Source: Eubacteriales bacterium
GTDB taxonomy: Bacteria; Bacillota; Clostridia; Oscillospirales; JAAYXM01
NCBI GenBank assembly: GCA_045586595.1
Contig: JAZNAQ010000020.1
Location: 281 to 64,280, forward strand
Reading direction: 5' to 3'
DNA: 64,000 bases
Position 1 is the first letter of the stretch, and each line of letters begins with the position of its first letter. Under the pieces are notes generated by a model. The model was not told the origin of the DNA. It ran no database searches and saw nothing but the letters and a program-made list of their open reading frames with translations. Shown here piece after piece: positions 16,556 through 46,027 of the stretch. Both the position numbers and the translations under genes were made by a program.

Positions 16556-16900
16556 TCACGTTGCCCTCCAATTCCCCGAAGACTTCGGCATATTTCTCCG
16601 TCTCCACCACGCCTTCGCCTCAGAATATGCCTGATTAAACATAGCCATGTCGTTTGTGTACATCGCCGTTTCCTGATTGTAATAATCAATCATCGCGACA
16701 AGGTACAAAACATAGATATTGTCGCACGGAGCAGGCATCAGCAGCTCGCGGTCATCGGGCCATGTGCTTTTGGGTATATCCCTGCCCATGGTCTCCGCAA
16801 TCTTGCCGTCAAGCTCATGGAGCCATTGTGCCTTTTGCTCCTCACCGAGAGTGTTCATTCTCAAATCATCCGCCTGCCGTATAGCTTCTGTTAGCTTCAT
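16556..16900 (-). CDS. Hypothetical virion/assembly protein
   Basis: 114-aa ORF coupled (ATGA-type overlap) to the fibre gene. No recognisable motif. Confidence 0.4.
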   Translation of the reverse strand: MKLTEAIRQADDLRMNTLGEEQKAQWLHELDGKIAETMGRDIPKSTWPDDRELLMPAPCDNIYVLYLVAMIDYYNQETAMYTNDMAMFNQAYSEAKAWWRRRNMPKSSGNWRAT

Positions 16901-18972
16901 ACACCGCCGCCTCCCGAGATAACTTTATCAACATACGCCTTAATTGCATCTTCAAGCTCATCTTTTCTTACATAAACTGCATCAGTCAGCGGCTCAAACG
17001 TGCTGAGAGTAAAATCTCTGAATACCATTGCCGCTCTGCTGCCGGATGATTTAACTACGCGAAGGATTAACACGTGCTCCCCTTCAGAAAGCTCAACAGT
17101 TCCGATGCGTACATTCTCGAAACCATCGAGTTCGATGGAGCCTGCCTTACGCGTATAAATAACACCTATAGGCTCCGCCCCCTGTACTGAGGTTAAATCC
17201 GAGAAGTATTTGAAATTCTCCCTCTTCATAGTATCGGGGGAGCCCTCTAACTCCGCATTGCTGATAACACCATAGGTTTCAGTGTTATCAGGTGCAAATT
17301 CTGCCCGCATCTCGTCTGTCATTGGTATTATATATGACTCTATTTTACCTCCGTTTTTATAAAACCCCCAATTCTCATGTAAGACGTATTTCCCTGTCTT
17401 AGGTACTTTAATTTTAAAAGCTATCCATTCGTCAGAGTACATCGTTGGCGTCTCTAACCATTCTTCACGCAGAGAGGTAAAGTTGCCTGAAGAAGTAGAC
17501 CTTGTAGCTACTGTCCCAAGAAATGCCCATGTACGGTCAGAGCCTGAACCTTCATCAGGATATTCTGAGTAAGCCTCAAGAGTACCATTGGTTACTACAT
17601 CCGAGTGTCCATTATTCGTATAGAATTTGAACGCTCTCTCAGTAAGCGTCCCCTCCATAGGTTTGGCTATAAGCTTTCCGTCAACATCTGCTCCGAGAGT
17701 TACAGGAATATTAAGTTGGTCTGAAAGCTGACGAATTTCACCGGAAAGCTCTGCAATCGAATCATATTTAGAAATATCAAAAACCTTTCCATCAAATTTT
17801 ATAGTACCGTCTTTGCATACTGTAAATGCGTTTTTTCGGTCATTCTCGCCTGTTCCTGCCCCTATCATAAACAAAGCATCAAGGTCATCAGGATTGTTAT
17901 ACATACCAAAAGATGCTTGGTATTTATTCAGCACAATATTCTGAAAACCCGCAATAAAAGCCGCGATTGCGCTCGCTCCAATGCGGTTCCCCCACCCAGC
18001 TGCAAACGCTCTATCAGCTTCAACAAGGTTATCATAGTTGACCGCCATGGAAGCCTTACCCGGCACGTTGTTATATTTACCAAGTGCCGCAGAGAGCTGA
18101 CCCGGTGCTTCGTTCGGTGAATAGTATCGGTCATCACCCTTATCGTATGTAGGGTCAATCTGAACTATAGAGCCTGTACCCTCGCCTCCCTGTAGATTGC
18201 TTATTGGTAAAAGCTCTGAAAGCGGTGTAATTCCGTCTCCTATGAAGATACGATATCGAACCGTATCTGTTATAATGAGCTCTTTGTTCTCGTCATACGC
18301 CGGCATATTATCATATTTAACAATATACATCTCGCCATCATCGGGTATTATAGAAGTAAGGTCGTCGTGCACAGAAACAATCGCCAATCCGCTCCCAACG
18401 TTTTCAGCCATACCTCCGCCTGTTCCGGGCATTATTCCAAGCTGCGCGGCCGTAACCTTATGCGGGTTGCTCTTATCTGCGATGTGTTCGCTTATCTTCT
18501 CATCTGCAAGCCTGATGAGGGAATCAATCCGTTCAACATCAGATACATTTGCCTTTGCCGTCGTGACAACTTCTATAAGCTCGCGGTTGTCCTTTATGTA
18601 CGCAACAAGCTCAGACAACTGGTCGAGCGTTGTATCGTCACTGTCCGCAAGCGCATTCAGCCTTCTTGTCAGTTCCGACACAAGGATACGAATATCGTTG
18701 TGAGCACCATCTGCTGTGTTGTGCATAGATACAAGCCCTTCAGCATGCTCTTTCGCGTTCTGCTCTGCACTGTCGTTTGCCGTTTCAAGCCCCGCAATTA
18801 TCTCCATGAGCTCATCAATGAGCGCGTTGAACTTTTCTTTTATCTCCTTGTCGCCTCTGCCGTCAAAAATCGCCTTAAGCTGTTTTGCCGAATATCCCGC
18901 GTCTGAAGGATAGTCCGGCAGGTCTGCCACGTTATCCGCATAGGTTGTTATCTTGTGATTGTCTAAGCTCAT
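16897..18972 (-). CDS. Tail fibre / receptor-binding protein (putative)
   Basis: 691 aa. The N-terminus NVADLPDYPSDAGYSAKQLKAIFD resembles phage fibre/appendage N-termini. It is followed by a coiled-coil stretch and a beta-rich C-terminal half. Confidence 0.45.
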   Translation of the reverse strand: MSLDNHKITTYADNVADLPDYPSDAGYSAKQLKAIFDGRGDKEIKEKFNALIDELMEIIAGLETANDSAEQNAKEHAEGLVSMHNTADGAHNDIRILVSELTRRLNALADSDDTTLDQLSELVAYIKDNRELIEVVTTAKANVSDVERIDSLIRLADEKISEHIADKSNPHKVTAAQLGIMPGTGGGMAENVGSGLAIVSVHDDLTSIIPDDGEMYIVKYDNMPAYDENKELIITDTVRYRIFIGDGITPLSELLPISNLQGGEGTGSIVQIDPTYDKGDDRYYSPNEAPGQLSAALGKYNNVPGKASMAVNYDNLVEADRAFAAGWGNRIGASAIAAFIAGFQNIVLNKYQASFGMYNNPDDLDALFMIGAGTGENDRKNAFTVCKDGTIKFDGKVFDISKYDSIAELSGEIRQLSDQLNIPVTLGADVDGKLIAKPMEGTLTERAFKFYTNNGHSDVVTNGTLEAYSEYPDEGSGSDRTWAFLGTVATRSTSSGNFTSLREEWLETPTMYSDEWIAFKIKVPKTGKYVLHENWGFYKNGGKIESYIIPMTDEMRAEFAPDNTETYGVISNAELEGSPDTMKRENFKYFSDLTSVQGAEPIGVIYTRKAGSIELDGFENVRIGTVELSEGEHVLILRVVKSSGSRAAMVFRDFTLSTFEPLTDAVYVRKDELEDAIKAYVDKVISGGGGV

Positions 18973-18973
18973 T

Positions 18974-20605
18974 TTACATTACCCCCTGTTCTGTTATCGG
19001 CAGGTCCGCTCCGCCCGGCATAAGCTGTTGCATCTGCGCCGCCTGTTGCTCTTGCTGTTTTATGTTCGCCTTAAGTGTTTTGACTATTTTCGCCTTGTTC
19101 TTAATGAACTTGTCCGGGATGGATTCGAGATATGTAACCGCATCCGGAACAATTCCCTTCGCCAGGAGATTATCCGCCGTCTGAATCTGCGTGAGCTCGC
19201 TCCAGTATGACGACTGCCCTATCTCAACTTTCATGTTGTAATTTGCATCACTGAGCGTCGAGAAGTCATGCATTCCTTCGTAGGACGCACCGTCGCTTGT
19301 TATGTTTATCGGACGCGTACCGTAGTCCGTGCGGATGATGTCAATAATTATCCGCACACATTCTTCCATAAACCTGAAATACTCAAGCCTCTGTATCTCA
19401 AGCGGCATTGCCGCGGCGTTCTGTGTTGCGATAATTGCAGACGTGTTGTCCGGCTTTACGTTGCCGAGCGCCGCATCATTCGCGCCCATATACTCCGACG
19501 TGTGCTGCATCAGGCCGTTTATAATGTTCATCATCTGCGGAGACATATTTCCGCCGCCGGTGGCTGATGCAATAGCGTCGTTCGGGTTTCCCACAACACC
19601 TATCGCCTGTCCCACCTTGTTGCTCCAGCTCGGAATTTTCGTTGCATCGTAAACCATCTTCTGTATTGCGTTTGTCTTAGCCCAGTGTATGCTCATTGCA
19701 TACAGCTGATTTATACATATCTGGTTCGGAATCGTCTGCGATACAGCACTCATGCCGTGGTATGAGTTTTTTATCTCTTCCCATACCATATTGGCTATCG
19801 GGTACCGTTCATACTTTGTGTCCCACTCAGAGCGAAGCACAACATCCTTCGTCGTCTTTATCGCGTGTATAGTTCCGTTCTCGCGCCAGAGCTTTGTTAT
19901 AACCGTGCAGAGCTCACTGCTCCCGCTCTCTCTGAATGTGTATATATCCGAGTCATCGTCGGCGTGTATCTGTGCGACCTCGTCATCAGAAAGCCCGCGC
20001 TTTTTAGCTTCTTCGCGCACGTCGGACAAAATACACGGTGTTGCTATTATTATGTACGGCTGTTTCTGGACCTCGTATTTATACGGATTGCCGAAAATAA
20101 CGCTTGTGTTGTCAATAACCTCGCTCGCTATACCGCCTCGGGCGCCGTTGCCTGCGTCTATGTCCTCGTCAAAGTAGAAATACATATACGCATCGCCGTC
20201 AACCGCCGCGTTTCTGACGACCTTTCGCGCCTGTGCTTTTATATTGCAGCGCTCAATCGTCTTATCGACCTCGGTCTCAATTACTCTCGCATCGAGCTCC
20301 TCTTTGATAACTTCCATCGGCTTCCCGCCGTCCTCGGCCGCCATCTGTGTTTTTGTCTTTTTATACGGCTCAAGAAGTATTCCGACATCATCCGATACAA
20401 GCATTGCTATAAAGTAGCTCACAACGCGCTTTGTTACGTTAAGAACAGGCTTTGGCAGGTCAGGGGCGTTAAGCCCCTCCCACTGCTTGCCGATAAAGAA
20501 GTTTTCGCACGTCTTTACAGTCTCATATAAGTCAATCGACTTGTTGTAGTTCTTACCCTTTCCAAACTCCCGCCAAATCTCCGTTGCCGTCTTTTTAATA
20601 TCCAT
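18974..20605 (-). CDS. Portal protein
   Basis: 543 aa. The size, the FFIGKQWEG segment near the N-terminus and the position within the structural module fit SPP1-gp6-type portals. Confidence 0.7.
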   Translation of the reverse strand: MDIKKTATEIWREFGKGKNYNKSIDLYETVKTCENFFIGKQWEGLNAPDLPKPVLNVTKRVVSYFIAMLVSDDVGILLEPYKKTKTQMAAEDGGKPMEVIKEELDARVIETEVDKTIERCNIKAQARKVVRNAAVDGDAYMYFYFDEDIDAGNGARGGIASEVIDNTSVIFGNPYKYEVQKQPYIIIATPCILSDVREEAKKRGLSDDEVAQIHADDDSDIYTFRESGSSELCTVITKLWRENGTIHAIKTTKDVVLRSEWDTKYERYPIANMVWEEIKNSYHGMSAVSQTIPNQICINQLYAMSIHWAKTNAIQKMVYDATKIPSWSNKVGQAIGVVGNPNDAIASATGGGNMSPQMMNIINGLMQHTSEYMGANDAALGNVKPDNTSAIIATQNAAAMPLEIQRLEYFRFMEECVRIIIDIIRTDYGTRPINITSDGASYEGMHDFSTLSDANYNMKVEIGQSSYWSELTQIQTADNLLAKGIVPDAVTYLESIPDKFIKNKAKIVKTLKANIKQQEQQAAQMQQLMPGGADLPITEQGVM

Positions 20606-20703: not shown

Positions 20704-23700
20704 TTATTTCGTATCGTGGTACAGCGTGTATATCCGTCTGGCGATACTGTTCTTATATCCGAGCTTTTGTATTGCCGCAACCTCGTCTGCCTTTGAGCTG
20801 TTCTTTGATATCGCGCTCTCGATTTTTTCAAACTCAGCATACGAGATGTCAAAGCGGTCAGATATAGCCTCAAAGCGCCTGTCAGTTTTGCCGAAGTATT
20901 CTTCATAATACTCCTTCCATGTTGTCTTTCCGCGTTTTACCTTCTCCTCCGCCTTTTTGTGGACATCAGAGCCGCCGTTTACTCTTATTGCATATTCCTC
21001 TCCGTAGAGCGCGCGGTTTGCTTCTCTGTACGCATATTCAAGCTTTTTATCCTCATCGCGGCCCGGATACTTTTTCAGATACTTTTCAACATTGCTACGG
21101 TATTTGTCGATGTTTTCAAGTATGGTCTTCTGGTACGCCGTCTTCTCTGCGCTCGCCGCTCTGACGGCCGCACGCCGTTCCTTGCTTGTTAGGTTTTTGT
21201 CCGTCTCTGCGGCTCTTATCTTCGAGCTGTAGGTACCTACCATATTCCTTTCTCGGTTTAAATGCTTGTAAACGATTTTATCTACCAGCGTACCCTTTGC
21301 AGAGTTCTTCGCCTGCTCCGCGGCATCAACCGCATCGTAAAACTCACCGCTTATCTTGTTTGAAAGCTTGCTGTCAGTCATAAAACTCGATGTCAATGCG
21401 CTCCAAGCCCCAAGCGCTATATTCTCTGCCACATTGTCGCCCTTTTGCTCGCTCGGTGTCAGCATCGGAAGGACCATTCGCCCAACGCCGCCTGTATACT
21501 GCTTGAGGATATAGTTGAGCTTTTTCGGTGATACTCCCAATGCCTTTCCAAGAGCCTTTGAAACGTAGTCCGTTGAGTTGTCAAACCTCTCTCCCGCCGG
21601 GAGCGACTGAAGGCTGTCGTTTTCAATGTCGGTACCGTACCAGGTTCTGCCCTTACTTTCGTCGTTGAGTAAGTCGGTATTTATCGCATCTTGAAGAATA
21701 TGGTTCAGCGGATTTTCGGGAAGTATGTTTTCTGCAATTATCGAAAGTGCCTCGCCTGCATCAACCTTCTCGCCCTTCATCGTGTCGCGCAACCTGTCGG
21801 CCACAACGCCGAGCGCAGCCATAACGCGTCCTTTCGGAAGTCGTATAAACTTTCCGTCGTCCGTCGGGAATAAGAAGTAGTTGTCCTTCATTCTTTCCGG
21901 GAGATTTTCATAGTCCTCTTTTTCGTCGTCATCTCCAAATGCGCCAAGCACAAGGTCATTAAAGAAGCCTGCAGTAAGCCCGAACATTGTGCATTTAACC
22001 GCAAGAGCTATCCATGCTTTTGAACTCTTGCTTTCCGTGAATGTTCTCACGAGTTTTGCCGTTCCCTGCAAAGACGGGTTAAGAAACGGGACAATGTATC
22101 TGTTTATTACTTTTCCATATGTCCCGCTTTCGCCAAAGTTTGTTGTGATGTCTGCAGCTGCAAGAAGAGCATCTGAAAGTGTGTCAACAGAGTTCGGGTC
22201 TCCCTTCTCGTAAACACTCATAAACTCCGCAAGTCGCGGCGCCTGCTCAATCACCACATTCAATGAAGCAATTCCTTCTTTTATCTTCTTCAGCTTTCCG
22301 CTTTTTGTTACGCCCTCATTCTGGATGTCTTCAAACCTTGAGGAACTTAAACCTCCTGCCGCTTGGTATAACTCCCACATTTCGCCGTTTGTTACTATCT
22401 CCTTGTATGCACGCCCAAAATTCTTTAAAAATGCTTTTGTATCCGTGCTATATATAAGCGCATCCTGGAAATCCTTGAGAAAGTTTCTTACACCAAAGGT
22501 CACATCGTATGTAGTGATAAGCTTTTTGTATGTATCAACTATATTCCCCCACAACTTTACACCCGGAATCTTTTCTTTCGGCATATTTGATAAGGTGTCA
22601 AACGCCTCAAATGTTTCAGGCGTGACAGACATTTTCACGCTTTTTCCGTCCTTGTAAAAACCAACAGTGTTTTCGAGGAAGCTTTCTTCTGCTATGTTGT
22701 CAAACTCTGCATCAAGATTTCTTCCTTCTTCGTTCACCTCTGTTATGTATCCTTTTAACAACTCGGGGTTTTTGTCGTACAAGTCTAAAACCTTGTTTGC
22801 AAGTATGTTTTTCTGCCCGTTTTTTACGACTTTATTTGTCATCGCAGACAGTGCTACATCAAGCGGCAACAATTTCTCCTGGCCGCCCTCCGCTTTGCTT
22901 ATCGCAGCACTTATATTTACTTTCCCCGTAATCCACTTCATATTCTCTTCGGTATTTCTGTATGTCGGGACATAATCGGGATACTTCTTTTTGAAATAAT
23001 CCGCCTCTTCCTGCGTTATAAGTCCGCTGTCGATTCGGTACTGCATAAGATTGTCAACATATTTGCGAACTTTTGATTCATATTCCTTAAACTCCGGATT
23101 TTCGCGCAAGAGTTGTGCCGCCTTCCATCTGGACTTATTAGCATCAAGCGGAAGTTTGGTATTCTCAAATAAAATAGGTTTGTTTTTCTCTTCCGCCGCC
23201 CTTAACTTCCTCTGTAACTCTAAATACTTTCTTGCCCGAAGCCCTCCGTTGTCTTCTCTTTTGCTCATTTCTTTGAGCTGTTCTTGCGTCCTCGTCGGAA
23301 GGTCGGAATTTGCTTTTATGTATTCCTGAAGTTCTGCGTTTGCTCTCTCTTCTGCCGTTCTGTTTTCAAGGCTCATTCGCGCTACATTGTGCCTCAGAAA
23401 AATATATCGCTGAAAATCATTCCAATGCTGTTCACCCTTTTCCTTTATAGGGCTAATTATTTCTTCAAGGCTCTCTCCAACCTTTTGACCTTTTATGTTT
23501 GTCTGCTTGTTTCCGAGCATATCCGAAACAATGTTCCCAGCACTTCGTGTGCGGTTATATGTGCCGTATAAGTGCTCATCTTTAACCGTCTTTGCAATTT
23601 TCCGAATAGCCTCACCACTGTTCAACATCTTGCGTTTTGCAAAACTTGCGGTTTCACTTATTTTTTTCAAAAAAGGTTTCTTTTCCTCTTCAGGCTTTCC

Positions 23701-26700
23701 CATCACTTGAGATTCTTTTTCTTCGCCATTTTTCTCCGCTGTCACCTGCGCCCGCTCCTCGATATCATTAAAATATGTATCAAGCCCCGTCTCCTCGATA
23801 TATGAGCCATCCACAGAGCCTTCCCCTTGAGGGGAAGGGAAACCGCTTGCGGTGGATGAGGTGTCTGCTGTCTTCCCATAATCCGGAGAAAGCAAATCTT
23901 CCGTTTTTAACGAATTTTGCCTGTTGCTTTTTTCAGGAGAATCGGGTATACTATTAGTAGAGGAGTTGATATCCTCTGAATTATCACGCAGGAATGTAGA
24001 CTTCGGATTTTGTCCGTATGAGCTACTTATGTCCTGCGTGATATTTTTTATTTGTGTTATATCCGTCAGAAGGTCTCCCTTTTCATTCGGGAGAATATTT
24101 ATCCTCCCTTCAAAATATTCATTTCCTACTTTGAATATCGTATCAAAATATTTAAAATCCCCTGTCGCCTGCGGATGTACGTGCCCGTCTGCTCCGTCTG
24201 GGGCCGTTCTGAAGTTTGTCCCTGCATCGATAAGGTTGTCAAGTTCCGTTGACGCTCGCATTTTTGCATCATATTCAAGACCGCTTATTCTCTTTGCTGG
24301 ATGCCCGTATTCTGCTGCGCTTCGTCCATTTACGAAAACTCTGTTATCGCGTCCAACTACTTTTCCGGAAAATCTTTCTTTTATTATTTTGGTTGCCATT
24401 CTTCCTTTTTCATTTTCTGTCAACCCATCAAATAAATGTTGGTCTGTTTGTACATCTACAAAACGTCTTCCGTCATCAAACATTTTTAAATCATACATTC
24501 TCCCGCCGCCTGCTTCTGTGCCGGCGGTGTTTATATTTCCGCTTGCGACTGCAGTTTCCGTTGCAGAGAGCATCTGCTCAAACTGCGCGACCGCCGCCTC
24601 AAGCTCCGATACCCTCGCGCCGTATTTCTCCTGTGATGCAGTGTCCATCTTCGACTTATCCCCGGAGAAAGTGGATTTTACTTTTGCTATAAAATCCTTT
24701 ATGCTGTCAATAAATCTCACAGCAACGTTGCGGTTGCTTTGTGCGAGTCGGTCAAACAGACTTATGTCGTTTACAATACGGCTTGCAAAGTCTGCCGCTA
24801 TCTCGTCAAGTGCCTGTGCGTCTGAAAACTCGGTCTGTGTGCCTTTTGAATATTCTGCCTTGTATCGGGTTATAAGCTCGCTCTTTTCGGCGTTGCTAAG
24901 CTTTTCAGATGCGTTTACCGCAAGCTCAAGGAACGCGTTATACTCTGCCGGCGCCGTTCTCTTCATATGGTGTGTCACTTCGTGGCAGAGGACAACTTCA
25001 AGCGGATTTTCCGCATCCTGGGCGATTACTATATTCCCGTTTTCATAATATCCGTTATGTGCGCCCGGTGCACTCCCCGTAGGTGCGCCGATAGAGATAT
25101 TAATGCCGAGCGCACGGCCGATAGCATCAAGCGCACGAATCTGCTTATTCGTTATCTTGTCGCTGAACTCGGTTTTTGTAAAACCGCCGCCCGCTCGGTT
25201 TCGGTTTATTGCTGTGTTTATTTCCGATATGGCCGAAGCTCCTCCGCCCATTATTCCGCCGGAGAGCGCTCCGCCCGCTCCCGCCATAAGAATATTTTTG
25301 CCGAAGAATTGGAAAAACGCTTCTTTTTCTGCCTCTATGCGGCTCGTCCCGTTCTTTTCAAGCTCTGATATGTAATTCTGATACTCAGATTTATCGCGCA
25401 TTACGGCAATATCAAGCGCAGTATTTGCAAGCTCAGAAACCATTTCCTCTGTCGCTTCCATCCCCGCTTGCTTTAAAACCGACTTTATCGTTGCTTTTAC
25501 TCCTGTTTTTCCAACCTGCTTTGCCGTTTTAAAAAGGTTGTCAAGCGGCATCTTTTCTGTAAGAGCCTCAATAGTGCCCGCCGCTGTTGATAAAACCAAA
25601 GCCTGCCCCGCCGTTCCTCCGCGCTCTAAAACGTCAAGCGTTGTCTGGCCTGCGGTATCCGCGCCCATAGCCAGCATCGCATACGGGCCGAGCGGAGCCT
25701 TGCTTAAAAAGTTCGCCATAGAAAGCCCCGTACCTGCAAGAAATGACGCAACCTCGCCCTTTGTTCCGCCGCCCGCCGCATCATATGCGCGGTCTGTCAC
25801 GCCTTCGCTTGTTTGTTTCGCCGTGTGCGCGCCTCTGAAAGCGCTCGAATTTGTGTCTGTCGGAACATACTCATCTCTGAAGATGTTTCCGACTGCATTT
25901 ACTGCGTTTTCAACGTATGCCGCAGGAGTAGTGAAGCTTGCCCCGACATTTTTTACAGCTCCCACAACAGGTCTTTCGTATGCGTCCTTATACGTCTCCT
26001 TGTTTTCTGCTTCCTGAACCCGCTTGTTCAGCGTTCTTTCAAGGAGCTTATAATATTCCTCAGCCTTGTCAAACTGACCGTCTGCCGCAAAGCTTCTCAT
26101 TACGTTCTTCTCTTTCTCGGTCATCTGCTCAACGCGCGCCTTATCTTCTCCATACTGGCCCTCAGAATCTGCAGTTCCATTAACAAAAGACATAATTATA
26201 TCTATATGTACCTGTTTACTGAACGGAGACGGCAAATTATATTTACCGTCTTCAAACTCTGCACTTGATGTAATCTTTGCGCCGATATTTGCCTTTTCGT
26301 CAAAGTCAGCGTTTGCGCTTACCGCTTCCATCTCATTTCTTTTCTCGGCTTGGCGATAATTATAAACATTGTTGCGCGTTTCCTGCGCCGCATTTCGGTA
26401 TATGTTAAGATATGCGTCCCCTGCTTTCATAGCGGCAATGGCAGGGTTCTCATCCCCGCGGGCTTTAGCCTTTAAAAACTCTTCGTCATACCTACGCTGA
26501 GCTTCTTTTTTTACGTAATCAGACTCCGCCCAGGCTTCAATATCCTTTGCGCGTGAAAGTTCACGCACCTTATCTGTGTCCCCGGAGGCCTCGGCGCGCT
26601 TGATAGCCCCCGCTCTGACCTCTGGAAGCATGGAATACTGAACGCTTCTGTTTGCTTCTCTGCGGTTTATGTCCGTTTCTTTTTCCTCGGCAGTCTTCGG

Positions 26701-26844
26701 TACAGGAGCAGAAAACGAAGTTCCCTGCTTTTTCCTTTCCTCAGCAGCAGTGGCATCCGCCATGAGCTTTTTCTCCCAATCTATTCTCTTTTGTTGCTGT
26801 CTTCTTTTTCTTTCTTCATTTACGCCGTCAACAAGTATTCCCAC
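20704..26844 (-). CDS. Giant virion-associated multidomain (polyvalent-type) protein with zincin HExxH motif
   Basis: 2046 aa with a GTG start after GGAAGGAGAG. LCHEVTHHM is encoded at 24984-24967. The protein has coiled-coil and Gly-rich segments and predicted TM helices in the C-terminal half. Gene context is structural. Confidence 0.6.
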   Translation of the reverse strand: MGILVDGVNEERKRRQQQKRIDWEKKLMADATAAEERKKQGTSFSAPVPKTAEEKETDINRREANRSVQYSMLPEVRAGAIKRAEASGDTDKVRELSRAKDIEAWAESDYVKKEAQRRYDEEFLKAKARGDENPAIAAMKAGDAYLNIYRNAAQETRNNVYNYRQAEKRNEMEAVSANADFDEKANIGAKITSSAEFEDGKYNLPSPFSKQVHIDIIMSFVNGTADSEGQYGEDKARVEQMTEKEKNVMRSFAADGQFDKAEEYYKLLERTLNKRVQEAENKETYKDAYERPVVGAVKNVGASFTTPAAYVENAVNAVGNIFRDEYVPTDTNSSAFRGAHTAKQTSEGVTDRAYDAAGGGTKGEVASFLAGTGLSMANFLSKAPLGPYAMLAMGADTAGQTTLDVLERGGTAGQALVLSTAAGTIEALTEKMPLDNLFKTAKQVGKTGVKATIKSVLKQAGMEATEEMVSELANTALDIAVMRDKSEYQNYISELEKNGTSRIEAEKEAFFQFFGKNILMAGAGGALSGGIMGGGASAISEINTAINRNRAGGGFTKTEFSDKITNKQIRALDAIGRALGINISIGAPTGSAPGAHNGYYENGNIVIAQDAENPLEVVLCHEVTHHMKRTAPAEYNAFLELAVNASEKLSNAEKSELITRYKAEYSKGTQTEFSDAQALDEIAADFASRIVNDISLFDRLAQSNRNVAVRFIDSIKDFIAKVKSTFSGDKSKMDTASQEKYGARVSELEAAVAQFEQMLSATETAVASGNINTAGTEAGGGRMYDLKMFDDGRRFVDVQTDQHLFDGLTENEKGRMATKIIKERFSGKVVGRDNRVFVNGRSAAEYGHPAKRISGLEYDAKMRASTELDNLIDAGTNFRTAPDGADGHVHPQATGDFKYFDTIFKVGNEYFEGRINILPNEKGDLLTDITQIKNITQDISSSYGQNPKSTFLRDNSEDINSSTNSIPDSPEKSNRQNSLKTEDLLSPDYGKTADTSSTASGFPSPQGEGSVDGSYIEETGLDTYFNDIEERAQVTAEKNGEEKESQVMGKPEEEKKPFLKKISETASFAKRKMLNSGEAIRKIAKTVKDEHLYGTYNRTRSAGNIVSDMLGNKQTNIKGQKVGESLEEIISPIKEKGEQHWNDFQRYIFLRHNVARMSLENRTAEERANAELQEYIKANSDLPTRTQEQLKEMSKREDNGGLRARKYLELQRKLRAAEEKNKPILFENTKLPLDANKSRWKAAQLLRENPEFKEYESKVRKYVDNLMQYRIDSGLITQEEADYFKKKYPDYVPTYRNTEENMKWITGKVNISAAISKAEGGQEKLLPLDVALSAMTNKVVKNGQKNILANKVLDLYDKNPELLKGYITEVNEEGRNLDAEFDNIAEESFLENTVGFYKDGKSVKMSVTPETFEAFDTLSNMPKEKIPGVKLWGNIVDTYKKLITTYDVTFGVRNFLKDFQDALIYSTDTKAFLKNFGRAYKEIVTNGEMWELYQAAGGLSSSRFEDIQNEGVTKSGKLKKIKEGIASLNVVIEQAPRLAEFMSVYEKGDPNSVDTLSDALLAAADITTNFGESGTYGKVINRYIVPFLNPSLQGTAKLVRTFTESKSSKAWIALAVKCTMFGLTAGFFNDLVLGAFGDDDEKEDYENLPERMKDNYFLFPTDDGKFIRLPKGRVMAALGVVADRLRDTMKGEKVDAGEALSIIAENILPENPLNHILQDAINTDLLNDESKGRTWYGTDIENDSLQSLPAGERFDNSTDYVSKALGKALGVSPKKLNYILKQYTGGVGRMVLPMLTPSEQKGDNVAENIALGAWSALTSSFMTDSKLSNKISGEFYDAVDAAEQAKNSAKGTLVDKIVYKHLNRERNMVGTYSSKIRAAETDKNLTSKERRAAVRAASAEKTAYQKTILENIDKYRSNVEKYLKKYPGRDEDKKLEYAYREANRALYGEEYAIRVNGGSDVHKKAEEKVKRGKTTWKEYYEEYFGKTDRRFEAISDRFDISYAEFEKIESAISKNSSKADEVAAIQKLGYKNSIARRIYTLYHDTK
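23815..23864 (-). repeat. Family 1 repeat, copy 2, embedded in frame in the giant ORF
   Basis: It has the same CACCTCATCC, ACCGC/GCGGT hairpin and CCTTCCCC/GGGGAAGG hairpin, and is translated as TSSTASGFPSPQGEGS. Confidence 0.8.
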
Positions 26845-41183: not shown

Positions 41184-41239
41184 TTGAATTAAATTCAACC
41201 TTGTGAGTGTATTATATCCCACAATTGTTGGAATGTCAA
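41184..41239 (-). promoter_or_regulatory. Early lytic promoter with palindromic operator
   Basis: On the minus strand: TTGACA (41239-41234), 17-nt spacer, TATAAT (41216-41211). The perfect 15-bp palindrome TTGAATTAAATTCAA (41184-41198) lies just downstream of the predicted start. Confidence 0.6.
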
Positions 41240-41297
41240 TCGGTATTTCCATCTATTGTTTGCTTTTGTATATTTGCACAAAAAGAAGGTGAAAAAC

Positions 41298-41714
41298 TTG
41301 TATAATTCGACGAACACAGTAGAGCTTATAAAAAAAGTAGCTAAAAACAAAAATATTTCTATTGCAACATTACTTTCAAATTGCGAACTAAATAAAAACA
41401 CGCTTTCTTCTATGACCTCAAGAGGCTCATGGATTCAGTCCGATAGCCTTGCAAAAATAGCAGACTATCTCGGCTGTTCCGTTGATTATCTCCTCGGCAG
41501 AACCGACGACCCCGAATCTCATATAGACAAGCTCGCCTTCCTCGACGAGCGTGACCGCGAGCTTGTCGCTTCAATTATAGAAAAGAGCTATGAGCGTTCC
41601 CGCTCTGATGTCGATAATGTGTCCGTTCACGAGCTACCCCGCTTTAAGGCCGTCGCCCATGGCGGAGATATCCTCGTCAACGAGCCTCTCGAAAAACCGA
41701 AAATCCCCGACTAA
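41298..41714 (+). CDS. CI-like XRE-family repressor
   Basis: HTH segment ISIATLLSNCELNKNTLSSM...LAKIADYLGCSVDYLLGRTD. The TTG at 41298 follows AGAAGGTGA; the longer track ORF has no RBS. Confidence 0.75.
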   Translation: MYNSTNTVELIKKVAKNKNISIATLLSNCELNKNTLSSMTSRGSWIQSDSLAKIADYLGCSVDYLLGRTDDPESHIDKLAFLDERDRELVASIIEKSYERSRSDVDNVSVHELPRFKAVAHGGDILVNEPLEKPKIPD

Positions 41715-41765
41715 AAAGACATGCCGGCATTCCGCGCCTTGTAAATGTAAAAAGGAGTGGTTTGT

Positions 41766-42425
41766 TTGGTTAAACATAAAGCAAAAACTTTGTATCGGAG
41801 GATAAAGAAAAACGGCATAACCTTTGAGGCTGTCAAAGATTACGCCGAGCGCTCGGGTTATTCAGTTTTGATGTATGATTCTCCCGAAGGGAAAATAGAG
41901 ATTGAAGCTTATAATCTGCAGGAGCTTGCCGCTAAACGAAGGGCTTTCACCTTTGATTCTAAAGTGAAATTCATTTTTATTACCTCAGCTGCAACAGAAT
42001 ATGAAAAGATATTTCTCTTGTTGCATGAGCTCGGTCATGTTCTCTTGGGGCACACCTCACAGACTTCCGTAAAAGATAGCTTTAACTGTGAAATGGAAGC
42101 TGACGCATTCGCCTATGAGGTATTGCATCATAAGAGCGGCATTTCTCCTAAACTACTTTCAGCCTTTCTTGTTTTAATAGCGTTTTTAGCAGGTGCTCTG
42201 ATTTCTCGGAGCTTTTTATTTTCTCAAAAATTAGAACCTCTGCAGAAGCCAATACAAGAAACTGCCGTGGTGTATGTAACCCCATCCGGCAGTAAGTATC
42301 ACACGGCAAATTGTCAGTTCGTCTCAGGAAACGCTAACGCAAAAAAAGTCTCGCTGAGCGAAGTATTACATACCCACACTCCGTGTAAGGTATGCACCCC
42401 GCAAATTGACATTATAAAGAAATAA
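41766..42425 (+). CDS. ImmA/IrrE-type metallopeptidase fused to a TM helix and an extracytoplasmic Cys-motif domain
   Basis: HELGHVLLGH plus EMEADAFAYE (ImmA signature), TM helix LLSAFLVLIAFLAGALISRSFLF, then SGSKYHTANC...TPCKVC. Start taken at TTG 41766, 8 nt after AAAGGAG. Confidence 0.7.
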   Translation: MVKHKAKTLYRRIKKNGITFEAVKDYAERSGYSVLMYDSPEGKIEIEAYNLQELAAKRRAFTFDSKVKFIFITSAATEYEKIFLLLHELGHVLLGHTSQTSVKDSFNCEMEADAFAYEVLHHKSGISPKLLSAFLVLIAFLAGALISRSFLFSQKLEPLQKPIQETAVVYVTPSGSKYHTANCQFVSGNANAKKVSLSEVLHTHTPCKVCTPQIDIIKK

Positions 42426-42483: not shown

Positions 42484-43167
42484 ATGAAAATTATAATTTT
42501 TCTAATAACAACTTTCGTTGTTTTTCTTCTAAATTCCTTATTTGGATTACTTGCTGGGTTTCAAATGGGCCCTGTGTTTCTCTATATTGTCATTTATTTA
42601 ATTTCTAAATTTTTCAGTGATAGATGGGAATCTCGAAAAATGTGCAAAAGCATAATGAGGTCTCTCCCTGAACAGCCTTCAACAGAACACTCATCACTTG
42701 AGCTGAAGTCCCACTCGGCACCACAACAAAAGAAGGTTGACAAGGAAAAACACAATCAATCAAGAATAAAGTTGACTTTTGCGAAAATCAAAGAACGTTG
42801 TAAAAAACATTTTTTCATATACCTTTCTGCAATTCTCTCGATTGCGCTTGCCTTTTCCTCTTTCTTCGTCGTTTCATTCTATATAGAATTGAAATCCGCC
42901 GAAAAGACTTTTGCCACTTATGAAACCGAATTCTCTGATGCGTTAGAGATGTACAAAGATTTAAAACACGCATCAGACCAAAAGATGGAACGCCGCTATG
43001 AGTTAATACATAACAGGTTCCCTGAAATTGGTCGAATAAAATTCGAAATTATAAAAAATGTATTTTCAAAACAAGGTAATAAAAACTATACTGTGAAACA
43101 GCTCAAAACCCTCGGATATACCGACGGAATCTCTCGCTTGATATATACGCTATGGTATGAAGCTTAA
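42484..43167 (+). CDS. Three-TM membrane protein with outward-facing C-terminal domain homologous to the giant virion protein C-terminus
   Basis: 227 aa with AAAGGAGG RBS. The basic loop between TM2 and TM3 predicts that the C-terminus faces outward. See findings for the alignment with residues ~1990-2046 of ORF 20704-26844. Confidence 0.6.
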   Translation: MKIIIFLITTFVVFLLNSLFGLLAGFQMGPVFLYIVIYLISKFFSDRWESRKMCKSIMRSLPEQPSTEHSSLELKSHSAPQQKKVDKEKHNQSRIKLTFAKIKERCKKHFFIYLSAILSIALAFSSFFVVSFYIELKSAEKTFATYETEFSDALEMYKDLKHASDQKMERRYELIHNRFPEIGRIKFEIIKNVFSKQGNKNYTVKQLKTLGYTDGISRLIYTLWYEA

Positions 43168-43217: not shown

Positions 43218-43790
43218 ATGGAAATTTCCAAACTTATCATCTCAACTATTCTGTCACTGACCCTTTGTCTTTCCTTATCCTCTTGTACGACCTATAGTAA
43301 CTATGAGATGCTTTATGACGAATTAGAGAGCGACTATAACAAATTAGAAGAGGATTATCTAAATCAAAAAGCACGGACTGAAGAAGTTTCGGAGAATTAT
43401 GCCGGCATAATAGAGTATTATGAATTGCTTTGCAAAGAATATGGATTTTTAACTTACGAACAAGCATACGACAGTGATTATTATTATGTTGAGCCGGGTG
43501 CTTTGATTTATCATACTGATTTCTATTGCAAAAAAGCAAATTCTTCAAATTTGCAAATTGTTGATATTTTCTTATATTCCTCATTAGAAGAATGTGCCGA
43601 ATGTGATGCAGCCAAATATGATATACGCCTAGCAGACCCAGTCACAAAGTTGTATCACCACACAGACGAAGCTTGCGCTCCGCATTTTACCAAAGATTTT
43701 AAAACTATTTCCACGCCGTATATTGCAACCACTGAACAGAAAGCAAAAGAAATGAAATACGCTCCCTGCCCTATATGTATGCCCAAATAG
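43218..43790 (+). CDS. Lipoprotein with two YH..C...CxxC motifs
   Basis: Lipobox LSLSSC. IYHTDFYC...ECAEC and LYHHTDEAC...PCPIC. Confidence 0.6.
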   Translation: MEISKLIISTILSLTLCLSLSSCTTYSNYEMLYDELESDYNKLEEDYLNQKARTEEVSENYAGIIEYYELLCKEYGFLTYEQAYDSDYYYVEPGALIYHTDFYCKKANSSNLQIVDIFLYSSLEECAECDAAKYDIRLADPVTKLYHHTDEACAPHFTKDFKTISTPYIATTEQKAKEMKYAPCPICMPK

Positions 43791-43901: not shown

Positions 43902-44432
43902 ATGAAGAAGATACTATCAGGAGTAGCAATAGCACTAATTATCCTTTTGGGTATGATTTGGATAGATAGCAAACTGTCTGCTCCCGCTCCGAATAATGCC
44001 ACATCAGAAACGGAAGAAGCCGCCCCCCTGCCGCCTTTAGCTAACGAATTATCCACAGCTATTGCCGAAAAAACTCCCGCACTTGCCGATGTAACTTACA
44101 AGGATGGAGTATATTCTTTAACAGCCACATACCATACATCCGATGACATAGCCTCTTTCGGCAACTATGTTTTAGACATTCACAACATTTTTATAGACCT
44201 TTTGCCCGATAGTGAACAAGGAAGCTTTGAATTGCTATGTTTTATCCATAGCGGCACAGAAAATGTTGATGCAATCACATTCAACAGCCTCTATTATATC
44301 GCGGGAAATGATGAACTACGCGGTATCATAACAGATTCACGAAGTGGCTCTGTTGAAGCCAAAACCATTAACAGCAAAGAGGACCTGTTTACCCTTTTCC
44401 CTGCTGCAAAACTCTATGCCGCAGAAGAATAA
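43902..44432 (+). CDS. Membrane-anchored/secreted hypothetical protein
   Basis: 176 aa with an N-terminal signal-anchor MKKILSGVAIALIILLGMIWI. No clear RBS. Confidence 0.45.
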   Translation: MKKILSGVAIALIILLGMIWIDSKLSAPAPNNATSETEEAAPLPPLANELSTAIAEKTPALADVTYKDGVYSLTATYHTSDDIASFGNYVLDIHNIFIDLLPDSEQGSFELLCFIHSGTENVDAITFNSLYYIAGNDELRGIITDSRSGSVEAKTINSKEDLFTLFPAAKLYAAEE

Positions 44433-44458: not shown

Positions 44459-46027
44459 ATGGCAAAGAAAACAGAAACAAACCCGCTGTTGAAAAACATC
44501 GGTGTCTGCTACGCTCGTTACAGCAGTCATAACCAAAAGGATGCGAGCATCGAACAGCAGGTAGCGGCTTGTCAGAAGAAGGCCCAAGAACTCGAGATAT
44601 CTTTAATAGAGTCATATGAGGACCGTGCCGTATCCGGAAGAACAGACAAAAGGCCCAGCTTCCAAAGAATGATGCGAGATGCTGAAAAGGGTAAATTTGC
44701 ATATGTCATAGCTTGGAAATCAAACCGCATGGGCAGAAATATGCTTGAGGCTATGATGAACGAAGCAAAGCTTCAATCTTGGGGAATACGAATTCTTTAT
44801 GTCGAAGAGGATTTCGATGATACAGCTGCTGGTCGATTTGCTCTCCGTTCCATGATGAATGTCAACCAATTCTATTCGGAAAACATGGCGGAAGATATCC
44901 GCCGAGGAATGAAAGACAATGCTCTCAACTGCAAAGTGACAAACGGCACACTTCCTTTCGGATATAAGGCAGACGAAAATTTGAAGTATGTAGTAGATGA
45001 GCCTAAAGCTGCTATCGTTCGTGAGATTTTTTCGCGGGTGCTTTGTGGCGAGCCTTTCGCTGATATTTACAGCGACTTAAATAGACGCGGCATAAAAACC
45101 TCTCGCGGGAATGAGTGGCACAAAAACAGTTTCGATTCAATATTAAAAAACGAGAGATACCGAGGTATCTATATTTTCGATGACATAAGAGTTGAGGGGG
45201 GTATCCCTCGAATTGTAAGTGATGAATTGTTTTTTGGTGTGCAGGAGGTGTTGAAAACGAAGAAAAATGCACAGGGTAGACATCGAGTATATGGAGATTA
45301 TCTTTTAACCGGAAAACTCTATTGCGGCAACTGTAAATCTCCTATGGTCGGTGTTTCCGGGACATCGAGAAACAGTCTTTTGCACCATTACTATGTATGC
45401 AAAAAAAAGAGAACTGAACATCTATGTAACAAAAAGAATGTTCGCCGTGATGAAATTGAGCTGGCTGTTGCTCAGGCTATAAAAGATTATGCCCTGCAAT
45501 CTGATGTAATTGAGTGGATTGCTGACAGCACAGTAGCATATAATAAGAAGCAAGAAGAATCCTCACATATAGGCATATTGGAAACCCAATTATCCGAAAC
45601 AAAAAAATCTATTAAAAACATGATGACTGCCATAGAGCAGGGCATTATAACAGCTACAACAAAAGCGCGGCTGATGGAGTTGGAAGCCGAGCAGTCAAAC
45701 ATCGCGGCACAAATATCGGCCGCAAAAGCTGACATCATAACCGTTTCGCGCAAGGATGTTATCGCAGGACTTTCAATGTTCCGCGATGGAGATGTTCACG
45801 ACAAGAAATATCAAGCTAAGCTTTTCGACACTTTTCTTGTTGCTGTATATCTGTTCGATAACGAACTGAAAATAGTATTTGGCTTTAGCGGGAAGAAAAA
45901 CAGTGTCACTTTACCCCTCGATATTTCTTCAGACGACCTCTCCTCTGCGTGTTCGTATAAAGCCTGTTCATCTCCACCACACCCTTGGACTGTTTCAAGG
46001 GTGTTTTTCTTTTTTAATATAATTTAG
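44459..46027 (+). CDS. Large serine recombinase (phage integrase)
   Basis: 522 aa. N-terminal resolvase catalytic domain CYARYSSHNQKDASIEQQ, a recombinase domain, a zinc ribbon CGNCKSP...YYVCKKK and a C-terminal coiled coil. Confidence 0.9.
   Translation: MAKKTETNPLLKNIGVCYARYSSHNQKDASIEQQVAACQKKAQELEISLIESYEDRAVSGRTDKRPSFQRMMRDAEKGKFAYVIAWKSNRMGRNMLEAMMNEAKLQSWGIRILYVEEDFDDTAAGRFALRSMMNVNQFYSENMAEDIRRGMKDNALNCKVTNGTLPFGYKADENLKYVVDEPKAAIVREIFSRVLCGEPFADIYSDLNRRGIKTSRGNEWHKNSFDSILKNERYRGIYIFDDIRVEGGIPRIVSDELFFGVQEVLKTKKNAQGRHRVYGDYLLTGKLYCGNCKSPMVGVSGTSRNSLLHHYYVCKKKRTEHLCNKKNVRRDEIELAVAQAIKDYALQSDVIEWIADSTVAYNKKQEESSHIGILETQLSETKKSIKNMMTAIEQGIITATTKARLMELEAEQSNIAAQISAAKADIITVSRKDVIAGLSMFRDGDVHDKKYQAKLFDTFLVAVYLFDNELKIVFGFSGKKNSVTLPLDISSDDLSSACSYKACSSPPHPWTVSRVFFFFNII
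45970..45979 (+). repeat. attR core candidate (ATCTCCACCA)
   Basis: Identical to the tRNA-Ala 3' end at 13130-13139. It lies inside the last 20 codons of the recombinase ORF. Confidence 0.5.
45980..46016 (+). terminator. Terminator (probably the original tRNA-Ala terminator)
   Basis: Stem CACCCTTG/CAAGGGTG followed by TTTTTCTTTTTT, immediately after the att core. Confidence 0.6.

What the first reader, a model, noticed from the sequence alone, without database searches (positions are those of the whole stretch)
42991..43167. Lysogen membrane protein carries an outward-facing copy of the C-terminal domain of the giant virion protein
The last ~57 residues of the 3-TM protein and of the 2046-aa virion protein (encoded about 20707-20880) align with one gap:
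- 3-TM protein: RYELIHNRFPEIGRIKFEIIKNVFSKQGNKNYTVKQLKTLGYTDGISRLIYTLWYEA
- virion protein: RFEAISDRFDISYAEFEKIESAISKNSSKADEVAAIQKLGYKNSIARRIYTLYHDTK

By eye about 22 of 57 positions are identical, including R.E.I..RF, FE.I, SK, LGY and I.R.IYTL.

The K/R-rich loop before TM3 predicts that this domain faces outward. Its pattern (FS+xG...QL...G[FY]....A/S.R.IY) is also reminiscent of the repeats of Ltp-type superinfection-exclusion lipoproteins; that comparison is from memory and has low confidence.

A prophage displaying on the cell surface a copy of a domain from its own ejected protein is a plausible decoy mechanism. It could block DNA injection by incoming sibling phages.
Basis: partly seen in the sequence, partly recalled or inferred. 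Interest (0 to 1): 0.7.

Follow-up and report, generated by a model that had tools for sequence, protein, structure and literature searches.

The report
Prophage membrane protein copies ejection-protein tail
A prophage in a gut Clostridia-type bacterium encodes, next to its repressor, a small membrane protein whose outward-facing tip is a genuine copy of the last ~60 residues of the phage's own 2046-residue injected-type protein, which makes it a strong but untested candidate for a new way of blocking superinfection.

Summary
ORF 42484-43167 (227 aa) and ORF 20704-26844 (2046 aa) share a ~60-aa C-terminal module. BLASTP gives 24/60 identities, E=5e-10. The score lies 21 SD above shuffles. Independently built family profiles match at 96.5% probability, E=7.5e-10.

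The module is very rare. A profile search of 1.84 billion representative proteins found 18 clusters. Three were unrelated repeat proteins. The rest were this membrane-protein family or the extreme C-terminus of giant polyvalent (LPD38) phage proteins.

The membrane proteins always lie in the lysogeny module, between repressor and integrase/recombinase, which is the slot held by ltp in phage TP-J34. The minimal family member is a basic tail, one TM helix and the ectodomain. Charge distribution predicts the module faces outward. Stalk and module are under purifying selection (dN/dS 0.1-0.2).

The Ltp resemblance is not supported by Pfam, hhalign (0.9%) or Foldseek. The fold, a stalk helix plus a three-helix bundle (pLDDT 89), has no known relative.

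My best reading (about 0.45) is a superinfection-exclusion protein that mimics the ejection protein's C-terminal module at the outer face of the membrane. The function is inferred, not shown. The virion location of the giant protein rests on gene context and on analogy to phi24B gp47.

The parts
42484..43167 (+). Gene for the 227-aa membrane protein (candidate exclusion protein). AAGGAGG lies 9 nt upstream of the ATG.
   Evidence: family of 7 clusters; alignment
42490..42609 (+). N-terminal hydrophobic hairpin (residues 3-42). Present in 3 of 7 family members and absent in the shorter variants, so dispensable.
42610..42810 (+). K/R-rich, poorly conserved segment (residues 43-109), predicted cytoplasmic. 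dN/dS 0.27-0.59.
42811..42885 (+). Conserved membrane anchor (residues 110-134). The N flank carries 3-5 K/R; the C flank is acidic or neutral.
42886..42978 (+). Stalk helix (residues 135-165). Nearly invariant in the family, and not significantly similar to the giant protein.
42979..43164 (+). About 60-aa helical module (residues 166-227) homologous to the C-terminus of the giant protein. Predicted extracytoplasmic.
20704..26844 (-). Gene for the 2046-aa polyvalent protein, inferred to be packaged and ejected.
   Evidence: literature
20707..20892 (-). C-terminal module of the giant protein (residues 1985-2046), the source-type copy of the shared domain.
21448..21921 (-). LPD38 domain of the giant protein (residues 1642-1799).
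   Evidence: E=4.8e-28
24970..24984 (-). HEVTH (HExxH) zincin motif of the giant protein (residues 621-625), inside the phrog_22978 match.
41256..41714 (+). Cro/CI-type HTH repressor gene, first gene of the lysogeny block.
41757..42425 (+). M78/IrrE-like metallopeptidase gene (ImmA-type partner of the repressor), directly upstream of the membrane-protein gene.
43218..43790 (+). 190-aa predicted lipoprotein (lipobox LSSC). Conserved next to the membrane-protein gene in L004 and L008 but absent in L001 and L016.
43902..44432 (+). 176-aa protein with an N-terminal signal or anchor sequence; function unknown.
44459..46027 (+). Large serine recombinase (prophage integrase) at the right end of the prophage.
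41211..41239 (-). Perfect TTGACA-17-TATAAT promoter pointing toward the lytic genes; marks the genetic switch.
18974..20605 (-). Portal protein gene, immediately downstream of the giant gene. This is the structural context.

Best explanation
ORF 42484-43167 is a prophage-expressed superinfection-exclusion protein built from a membrane anchor plus a captured copy of the C-terminal module of the phage's own polyvalent ejection protein.

Shown: (1) the two modules are homologous; (2) the module occurs almost only in these two contexts; (3) the gene always lies in the lysogeny module; (4) anchor plus ectodomain is the conserved, selected unit.

Inferred: (1) the N-terminus is inside and the stalk and module are displayed on the outer face of the cytoplasmic membrane of a monoderm Oscillospiraceae host; (2) the giant protein is packaged in a short-tailed virion and ejected ahead of or with the DNA; (3) its C-terminal module must engage a partner at the membrane surface, either a host component or another part of the ejection conduit, possibly another copy of itself; (4) the tethered copy competes for that partner or co-assembles as a dead-end subunit, so DNA entry by this phage and by relatives carrying the module is blocked after adsorption.
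For: Homology.

Rarity and specificity: 18 representative clusters among 1.84 billion. Apart from three repeat proteins, all are the membrane family or giant-protein C-termini. The module lies 0-1 residue from the C-terminus in every close giant protein, with one extra internal copy in P0015, and was not detected in the more distant relatives, including several that carry LPD38.

Position: in 6 independent contexts the gene lies between repressor and integrase/recombinase. This matches ltp in TP-J34, which runs CI, metalloprotease-motif gene, ltp, int. [quoted passage not shown]

Variable slot: a related phage has an Mrr-nuclease-domain gene next to its recombinase, where L001 has the membrane-protein gene. 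L016 has a different 263-aa gene after the membrane-protein gene.

Topology: basic N flank and acidic or neutral C flank of the conserved TM helix in all 7 members. The N-tails of 84-148 aa have no signal peptide. The minimal variant is a signal-anchor followed by the ectodomain.

Selection: dN/dS 0.12-0.19 for the module and about 0.1 for the stalk where dS is not saturated, against 0.27-0.59 for the cytoplasmic part.

Co-occurrence: both copies are present in three genomes (window; GCA_017408185.1, inferred from the shared IJF32 locus-tag prefix of P0005 and P0008; GCA_015068085.1, L016 and P0027).

Giant protein as ejection protein: LPD38 and HExxH, encoded between p414 and the portal gene, and no tape-measure or tail-tube gene recognised among the structural genes. 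In phi24B the LPD38 polyvalent protein gp47 was found in virions by proteomics and proposed as an ejection protein. Polyvalent proteins are predicted to be injected.

Precedent: escape mutations from P22 SieA, an inner-membrane protein, map to the C-terminal regions of ejection proteins gp16 and gp20.
Against: There are no functional data of any kind; host and phage are known only from metagenome assemblies.

Topology rests on the positive-inside rule; no dedicated predictor or experiment was available.

Virion location and ejection of the giant protein are inferred by context and analogy.

The partner of the module is unknown, and its fold has no informative structural neighbour.

Most phages with a module-bearing giant protein appear to lack a membrane copy: the membrane family contributes only 3 representative clusters, against about 12 giant-type clusters among those 18. 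So the membrane copy is an accessory.

Membrane modules are no closer to the giant protein of their own genome than to giants of sister genomes. There is therefore no co-evolution signal.

No PADLOC defence family matches.
Confidence: 0.45

Rival explanations
1. The protein serves the phage's own lytic cycle rather than exclusion. It could be a membrane docking or sequestration site for newly made giant protein or for the giant protein's assembly partner. It could also stop progeny virions from injecting wastefully into the lysing or lysogenic cell envelope.
For: The shared module implies a shared partner, and that partner could be another virion protein such as the portal. In the N4 virion RNA polymerase, the C-terminal region is needed for encapsidation. 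There are very weak, non-significant Pfam similarities to antiholin and Mu Gp48.
Against: The gene is on the repressor/integrase strand, across the switch promoter from the lytic genes. It is absent from a related phage that has the same type of giant protein, so it is not needed for assembly. The predicted outward orientation puts it in the wrong compartment for cytoplasmic assembly.
Confidence: 0.13
2. It is an abortive-infection or signalling sensor. The displayed module pairs with the incoming giant protein's module, and that contact triggers a membrane effect or a signal to the adjacent HTH/M78 regulator pair, instead of passively blocking entry.
For: A membrane protein sits directly beside an ImmR/ImmA-type pair whose peptidase itself has a hydrophobic segment. 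Some members have an extra TM hairpin.
Against: The hairpin and the cytoplasmic segment are dispensable or poorly conserved, and the minimal variant has only about 18 cytoplasmic residues, leaving no plausible effector or signalling part. In relatives the neighbouring regulator is a different type (S24 CI-like).
Confidence: 0.1
3. The module is a general envelope-binding domain, for example for a cell-wall polymer. Two unrelated proteins use it independently, and the membrane protein is a lysogenic-conversion surface protein with no direct relation to phage entry.
For: The module is a small helical bundle containing an LGY-x3-A/S motif that also occurs in unrelated repeat proteins (P0021). The downstream genes also encode envelope proteins.
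Against: The module is not general. An exhaustive profile search found it only in these two phage contexts. No Pfam, PDB or Foldseek relation to any binding domain was found. Even under this reading, occupying the same envelope ligand as the ejection protein would produce exclusion.
Confidence: 0.12
4. The similarity is chance or compositional, or the ORF is not a real gene.
For: The segment is short (60 aa), helical and rich in charged residues.
Against: z=21 against shuffles. E=5e-10 with composition-based statistics. The profile-profile E-value is 7.5e-10. A profile built mainly from membrane-family sequences retrieved giant C-termini out of 1.84 billion proteins. There is purifying selection and a strong ribosome-binding site.
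Confidence: 0.02

Closest known systems
Ltp of Streptococcus thermophilus phage TP-J34 (Pfam PF07553; surface lipoprotein for superinfection exclusion)
   Same: The gene position is the same: repressor, metalloprotease-motif gene, exclusion gene, integrase. Both are small, helical, tethered to the outer face of the membrane of a Gram-positive host, and built as anchor, spacer or stalk, then active domain. Ltp is expressed from the prophage and blocks DNA injection by binding a protein ejected from the virion, the tape measure protein (PMC3952083, citing Bebeacua 2013).
   Different: No sequence, profile or fold similarity was found. The anchor here is a TM helix, not a lipid, and there is one module rather than two repeats. 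This active domain is a paralogue of the phage's own ejected protein, which to my knowledge is not reported for Ltp. No tape-measure gene was recognised in this phage.
SieA of Salmonella phage P22
   Same: A prophage-expressed cytoplasmic-membrane protein of a short-tailed phage that blocks DNA delivery. Escape mutations map to the C-terminal regions of ejection proteins gp16 and gp20 (PMC10883804). That is the same class of target, and the same end of it, as proposed here.
   Different: Nothing SieA-annotated appeared in the PHROGs scan, whose only hit was an unannotated family at E=0.015; I made no direct comparison with a SieA sequence. SieA acts in a Gram-negative envelope. It is not described as a copy of an ejection-protein domain, and its mode of interference is not known to be mimicry.
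Polyvalent proteins of phages and conjugative elements (Iyer et al. 2017), e.g. phi24B gp47 and the N4 virion RNA polymerase
   Same: The 2046-aa protein has LPD38 and an HExxH motif, is encoded among virion genes, and has relatives carrying further Pfam families that I recall as polyvalent-protein effector domains (ART-PolyVal, MuF-C, PBECR).
   Different: The ~60-aa C-terminal module matched no family in the Pfam copy searched. I found no report of a membrane-anchored lysogeny-module paralogue of any polyvalent-protein domain in the papers I read.
Entry interference by a resident copy of the virus's own entry protein (filamentous-phage pIII-mediated immunity; Env-mediated receptor interference by endogenous retroviruses). 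From my own knowledge, not tested here.
   Same: The concept is the same: a cell that expresses a piece of the virion's entry machinery occupies the entry partner and becomes resistant to the same virus.
   Different: These are unrelated viruses and proteins. I know of no described case in tailed phages where the copied part comes from an ejection or internal protein.

Membership tests
Ltp-type superinfection-exclusion lipoproteins (PF07553) | Ltp repeat domain detectable by the Pfam model or by profile comparison | tested here: not met
   No PF07553 hit for the full protein, for the isolated module, or for any of 13 module sequences at E<=10. hhalign against TP-J34 Ltp gives 0.9% probability.
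Ltp-type superinfection-exclusion lipoproteins (PF07553) | Lipoprotein signal peptide with a lipobox cysteine | tested here: not met
   There is no lipobox. Anchoring is by a conserved 22-25-residue TM helix. The downstream ORF 43218-43790 does have a lipobox, but it is a different protein.
Ltp-type superinfection-exclusion lipoproteins (PF07553) | Fold of the Ltp repeats (solved structure) | tested here: not met
   Foldseek of the pLDDT-89 model against the PDB gave a best E of 0.64, with no Ltp entry among the 45 hits.
Ltp-type superinfection-exclusion lipoproteins (PF07553) | Gene in the lysogeny module, expressed in the prophage | tested here: inconclusive
   The position requirement is met in the window and in 6 related contexts. 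Expression cannot be tested from sequence.
Superinfection-exclusion proteins (functional class) | Expression protects the cell against the same or related phages after adsorption | not testable with these tools
   This needs plaque, adsorption and DNA-entry assays.
Superinfection-exclusion proteins (functional class) | Active part exposed on the outer face of the cytoplasmic membrane | tested here: inconclusive
   The positive-inside rule predicts an outward C-terminus in all variants. No dedicated predictor or experiment was available.
Polyvalent proteins (giant ORF 20704-26844) | Large polyvalent-protein-associated domains | tested here: met
   LPD38 at E=4.8e-28, above the gathering score. 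Relatives carry other Pfam families (PF18760, PF18819, PF18812 and others) that I recall as polyvalent-protein domains.
Polyvalent proteins (giant ORF 20704-26844) | Zincin-like metallopeptidase (HExxH) domain | tested here: inconclusive
   An HEVTH motif at residue 621 lies inside the phrog_22978 match. No Pfam peptidase model was hit.
Polyvalent proteins (giant ORF 20704-26844) | Packaged in the virion and injected | not testable with these tools
   The gene lies between structural genes. The analogy is to phi24B gp47, found in virions by proteomics.
P22 SieA family | Sequence homology to SieA | not tested
   No direct comparison was made. The PHROGs scan gave only phrog_30052 (unknown function, E=0.015).

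The most novel reading that the evidence does not exclude
A temperate, apparently short-tailed phage protects its lysogen by self-mimicry. It captured the last ~60 residues of its own ejected polyvalent protein, fused them to a signal-anchor and stalk, and displays them on the outer face of the membrane. There they act as a competitive or dominant-negative decoy that jams assembly or docking of the DNA-delivery conduit of incoming sibling phages. To my knowledge this would be the first exclusion protein of a tailed phage derived from its own ejection machinery. It would also identify the C-terminal module as the membrane-engaging end of LPD38-type polyvalent proteins.
Probability: 0.35. Interest if true: 0.75.

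Novelty: new variant of a known kind. Interest (0 to 1): 0.6.

Why it matters
Membrane-anchored exclusion proteins encoded beside the repressor are a known kind (Ltp, Sie2009, SieA, HK97 gp15), but how they recognise their targets is mostly unclear. Here the sequence itself names the likely target interface: the protein's whole conserved ectodomain ends in a copy of the ejection protein's C-terminal module.

If the mimicry reading holds, three things follow. It gives a simple evolutionary route to exclusion, by copying the interacting end of the phage's own entry protein and tethering it outside. It assigns a role and a location to an uncharacterised, conserved C-terminal cap of giant polyvalent proteins, whose ejection mechanics are an open question. 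And it suggests a general search rule for new exclusion genes: lysogeny-module membrane proteins that share a domain with a virion protein of the same phage.

If it does not hold, this is still a rare, well-defined new domain with a confident predicted fold and a sharply restricted distribution.

Tried and rejected
1. Ltp homology is rejected. The tests were Pfam on the full proteins, on isolated modules and on each of 13 module sequences, hhalign against TP-J34 Ltp, and Foldseek against the PDB.

2. No known family covers the module. Pfam, NCBIfam, PHROGs and PADLOC gave nothing. PDB sequence and profile searches gave nothing significant. Foldseek against the PDB and BFVD gave nothing significant for either model. 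A by-eye resemblance of 'IQKLGY' to PG-binding or UBA-like helices got no support from these scans.

3. Cultured phages. tblastn of the membrane protein against 50,697 phage records found no match. The giant protein's C-terminal 498 aa matched only through the LPD38 region, at 22-26% identity, in small Vibrio, Shewanella and Bacillus phages. None matched the terminal module.

4. Extended homology. MAFFT aligns the whole 93-aa ectodomain with the giant protein's tail, but hhalign supports only the last 59 columns. I do not claim homology for the stalk.

5. Origin from the phage's own lineage. Membrane modules are closer to the nearest giant clade (35-41% identity) than to distant giants (25-32%). 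The nested placement has weak bootstrap support (77/200), and there is no same-genome excess of identity. The direction and timing of capture remain unresolved.

6. Other lysogeny-module proteins copying virion proteins. None was found at E<=1e-3.

7. The Cys motif that seemed shared by the M78 tail and the lipoprotein is only marginal (E=0.01 over 10 residues).

8. I considered a linker-fused complex prediction and did not run it. The tool returns no interface metrics, so the result could not have been interpreted.

Full report
THE OBSERVATION. ORF 42484..43167 (+) encodes 227 aa and ORF 20704..26844 (-) encodes 2046 aa. BLASTP of the full proteins gives one significant segment: residues 167-226 against 1986-2044, with 24/60 identical, one gap and E=5e-10 under composition-based statistics. 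A Smith-Waterman score of 109 compares with 21.9 +/- 4.1 for 5000 shuffles (z=21). Against the whole giant protein z=17. Among all 262 ORFs of >=60 aa in the window, this pair is one of five intra-window similarities; the other four involve short ORFs that mostly overlap longer ORFs on the opposite strand. Profiles built separately from six membrane-family members (A4) and seven giant C-termini (A5) match at 96.5% probability, E=7.5e-10, over 59 columns. The significant homology covers about residues 166-226 (window 42979-43164); the helix upstream of it is not significantly aligned.

ANATOMY OF THE MEMBRANE PROTEIN. The family is tiny: 7 clusters at 90% identity among 5.8 billion sequences, and the only source name given is Oscillospiraceae. 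The alignment shows a nearly invariant core made of one TM helix (residues 110-134 here) plus a 93-aa C-terminal region. Three members carry an N-terminal hydrophobic hairpin. Three begin at the equivalent of M53. P0004 and the genes in L015/L016 are minimal forms of about 130 aa: a short basic tail, the TM helix and the ectodomain. In the window the full-length start has a strong AAGGAGG 9 nt upstream. In all seven members the 15 residues before the conserved TM helix carry 3-5 K/R. The 15 residues after it carry 2-3 K/R against 3-4 D/E. The long N-tails have no signal peptide. The positive-inside rule therefore predicts N-in, C-out for every variant, whether the N-terminal hydrophobic stretch crosses the membrane once or twice. 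This is a prediction, not a measurement. Codon analysis of four genes gives dN/dS of 0.12-0.19 for the module and about 0.1 for the stalk where dS is not saturated, against 0.27-0.59 for the cytoplasmic segment. The ectodomain is the selected part.

STRUCTURE. AlphaFold2 on the 93-aa ectodomain, with a 13-sequence alignment, gives pLDDT 89. It shows a long helix (2-44) continuing from the membrane, then three short helices (50-62, 66-75, 80-92). The giant protein's last 300 aa are all-helical, with pLDDT above 90 over the last ~220 aa, and end in the same four-helix pattern. Foldseek against the PDB and against viral predicted structures found nothing significant for either model. Pfam, NCBIfam, PHROGs, PADLOC and PDB sequence or profile searches found no family for the module.

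DISTRIBUTION OF THE MODULE. An exhaustive HMMER search with a 63-position profile (six membrane sequences plus the window's giant protein) against 1.84 billion representative proteins found 18 clusters at E<=0.001. Three are membrane-family representatives. Three are unrelated repeat proteins matching one helix. The rest are giant proteins of 1474-2678 aa, or contig-end fragments of them, with the module at the extreme C-terminus. In full-length relatives of the window's giant protein, the module lies 0-1 residue from the end in every close relative, with one additional internal copy in P0015. It was not detected in the more distant relatives, several of which carry LPD38. The giant proteins share constant N- and C-terminal blocks around a variable centre. 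Several relatives carry extra Pfam families (PF18760, PF18819, PF18812 and others) that I recall as the ART-PolyVal, MuF-C and PBECR domains of polyvalent proteins. In P0032 and P0016 the last ~220 aa sit on a different upstream region, so that unit is itself modular. The module thus belongs to the constant scaffold, not to the swappable effectors.

GENOMIC CONTEXT. The prophage runs from about 13.2 to 46.0 kb, between a transketolase gene and host transporter genes. The lytic genes are on the - strand: TerS, a PHROG-unknown protein, major head protein, a 705-aa virion protein, a 414-aa protein, the giant protein, portal, a 691-aa fibre-like protein, TerL, holin and lysin. No tape-measure or tail-tube gene was recognised among them. 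I infer a short-tailed virion. A perfect consensus promoter at 41239-41211 (-) faces the lytic genes. On the + strand lie the HTH repressor (41256-41714), an M78/IrrE-type peptidase (41757-42425), the membrane protein, a lipoprotein (43218-43790), a 176-aa signal-bearing protein and a serine recombinase. Gaps between neighbouring genes are 27-112 bases, and the scan reported no strong terminator-like site in them. In every related contig the membrane-protein gene holds the same slot between repressor and integrase/recombinase. The neighbouring cargo varies: the lipoprotein in L004 and L008, nothing in L001, and a 263-aa protein in L016. In L013, a sister phage with a module-bearing giant protein, an Mrr-nuclease-domain gene sits next to the recombinase. 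The TP-J34 record shows the same order, CI, metalloprotease-motif gene, ltp, int.

CO-OCCURRENCE. Membrane copy and module-bearing giant protein occur together in the window and in two MAGs. In GCA_017408185.1 the pair is P0005 and P0008; I infer this from their shared IJF32 locus-tag prefix. In GCA_015068085.1 the pair is L016 and P0027. Membrane modules are closer to the giant clade that includes these phages (35-41% identity) than to distant giants (25-32%). The nested placement is weakly supported (77/200 bootstraps), and there is no same-genome excess of identity. Capture from this phage lineage is plausible but unproven.

MECHANISM. I read the protein as a superinfection-exclusion factor that displays a mimic of the ejection protein's C-terminal module on the outer face of the membrane. 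Homology, rarity, position, selection and co-occurrence are shown. Outward topology, expression in the lysogen, packaging and ejection of the giant protein, and competition for a partner are inferred. Three papers support the inferred steps. In phi24B the LPD38-bearing, 2811-aa gp47 was detected in virions by proteomics and proposed as an ejection protein (bioRxiv 10.64898/2026.04.10.717836). Polyvalent proteins are predicted to be injected with the DNA (PMC5512222). P22 SieA, an inner-membrane protein, blocks DNA delivery, and escape mutations map to the C-terminal regions of ejection proteins gp16 and gp20 (PMC10883804). I cannot say whether the tethered module competes for a host partner or co-assembles with incoming protein. 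I put the overall reading at 0.45. The rivals are a role in the phage's own lytic cycle (0.13), an abortive-infection or signalling sensor (0.10), a general envelope-binding domain with an unrelated role (0.12) and chance (0.02). The remainder is unassigned.

COMPARISON WITH KNOWN SYSTEMS. The protein works like Ltp and SieA in position, tethering and presumed target class, but it is not a member of either family. The Ltp domain, lipobox and fold were each tested and not met. I made no direct SieA comparison. The giant protein is a polyvalent protein by its LPD38 domain. What differs from every exclusion protein I know of in tailed phages is that the active part is a paralogue of the phage's own ejected protein. 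Conceptually that resembles entry interference by filamentous-phage pIII or by endogenous retroviral Env (from my own knowledge). My literature searches for such a case in tailed phages found none, but the library is incomplete.

VERDICT. The Ltp link is wrong. The decoy idea is the best available explanation and remains untested. I class it as a new variant of a known kind, with interest 0.6.

Noticed in passing
window 41757-42425: The M78/IrrE-type peptidase next to the repressor has a hydrophobic segment (about residues 135-160) followed by a tail with a YH-x3-C ... PC-x2-C motif. That is unusual for an ImmA-type anti-repressor protease and suggests a membrane-associated form.
   Followed up: partly
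window 43218-43790: This is a predicted lipoprotein (lipobox LSSC, Cys23) with two YH-x3/4-C ... C-x2-C motifs. It is 87% and 74% identical to the genes that follow the membrane-protein gene in L004 and L008, and is absent in L001 and L016. It has no family hit. Its similarity to the M78 tail is only marginal (E=0.01 over 10 aa). It may be a second surface factor of the lysogen.
   Followed up: partly
window 43902-44432: A 176-aa protein with an N-terminal signal or anchor sequence and no family hit. It is the third consecutive envelope protein in the lysogeny block.
   Followed up: no
L013 25707-26341; L016 7305-8096: In sister phages the region next to the recombinase carries other cargo: a 596-aa Mrr_cat/SWIM protein in L013, and a 263-aa protein in L016 that looks NYN/LabA-like by eye (not scanned). 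The region behaves as a variable defence or moron slot.
   Followed up: partly
window 41211-41239 (- strand): A perfect TTGACA-17-TATAAT promoter points toward the lytic genes, immediately upstream of the repressor gene on the other strand. This is probably the early lytic promoter of the switch.
   Followed up: no
window 20704-26844 and relatives P0027-P0032: The giant proteins keep constant N-terminal (~1-780) and C-terminal (~1000-2046) blocks around a variable central region. Relatives carry extra Pfam domain families, whereas in the window's protein only LPD38 (Pfam) and an HExxH motif were found. P0015 carries the C-terminal module twice.
   Followed up: partly
window 16897-18972 compared with L018 4557-6410: The 691-aa fibre-like protein is conserved with a sister phage only over its first ~180 residues (43% identity), while portal and TerL are 90-93% identical. 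This is the usual pattern of host-range module exchange.
   Followed up: no
protein P0021 (825 aa): This unrelated protein has about ten tandem 'NL(D/E)KFGYTPEIA(Q/R)LLAANG' repeats that weakly match the last helix-turn-helix of the module. The similarity is probably convergent.
   Followed up: no
window 42484-43167, residues 165-210: There is a weak hit to phrog_30052 (unknown function, E=0.015) over the module region. It could be a distant small phage protein carrying a related helix pair.
   Followed up: no
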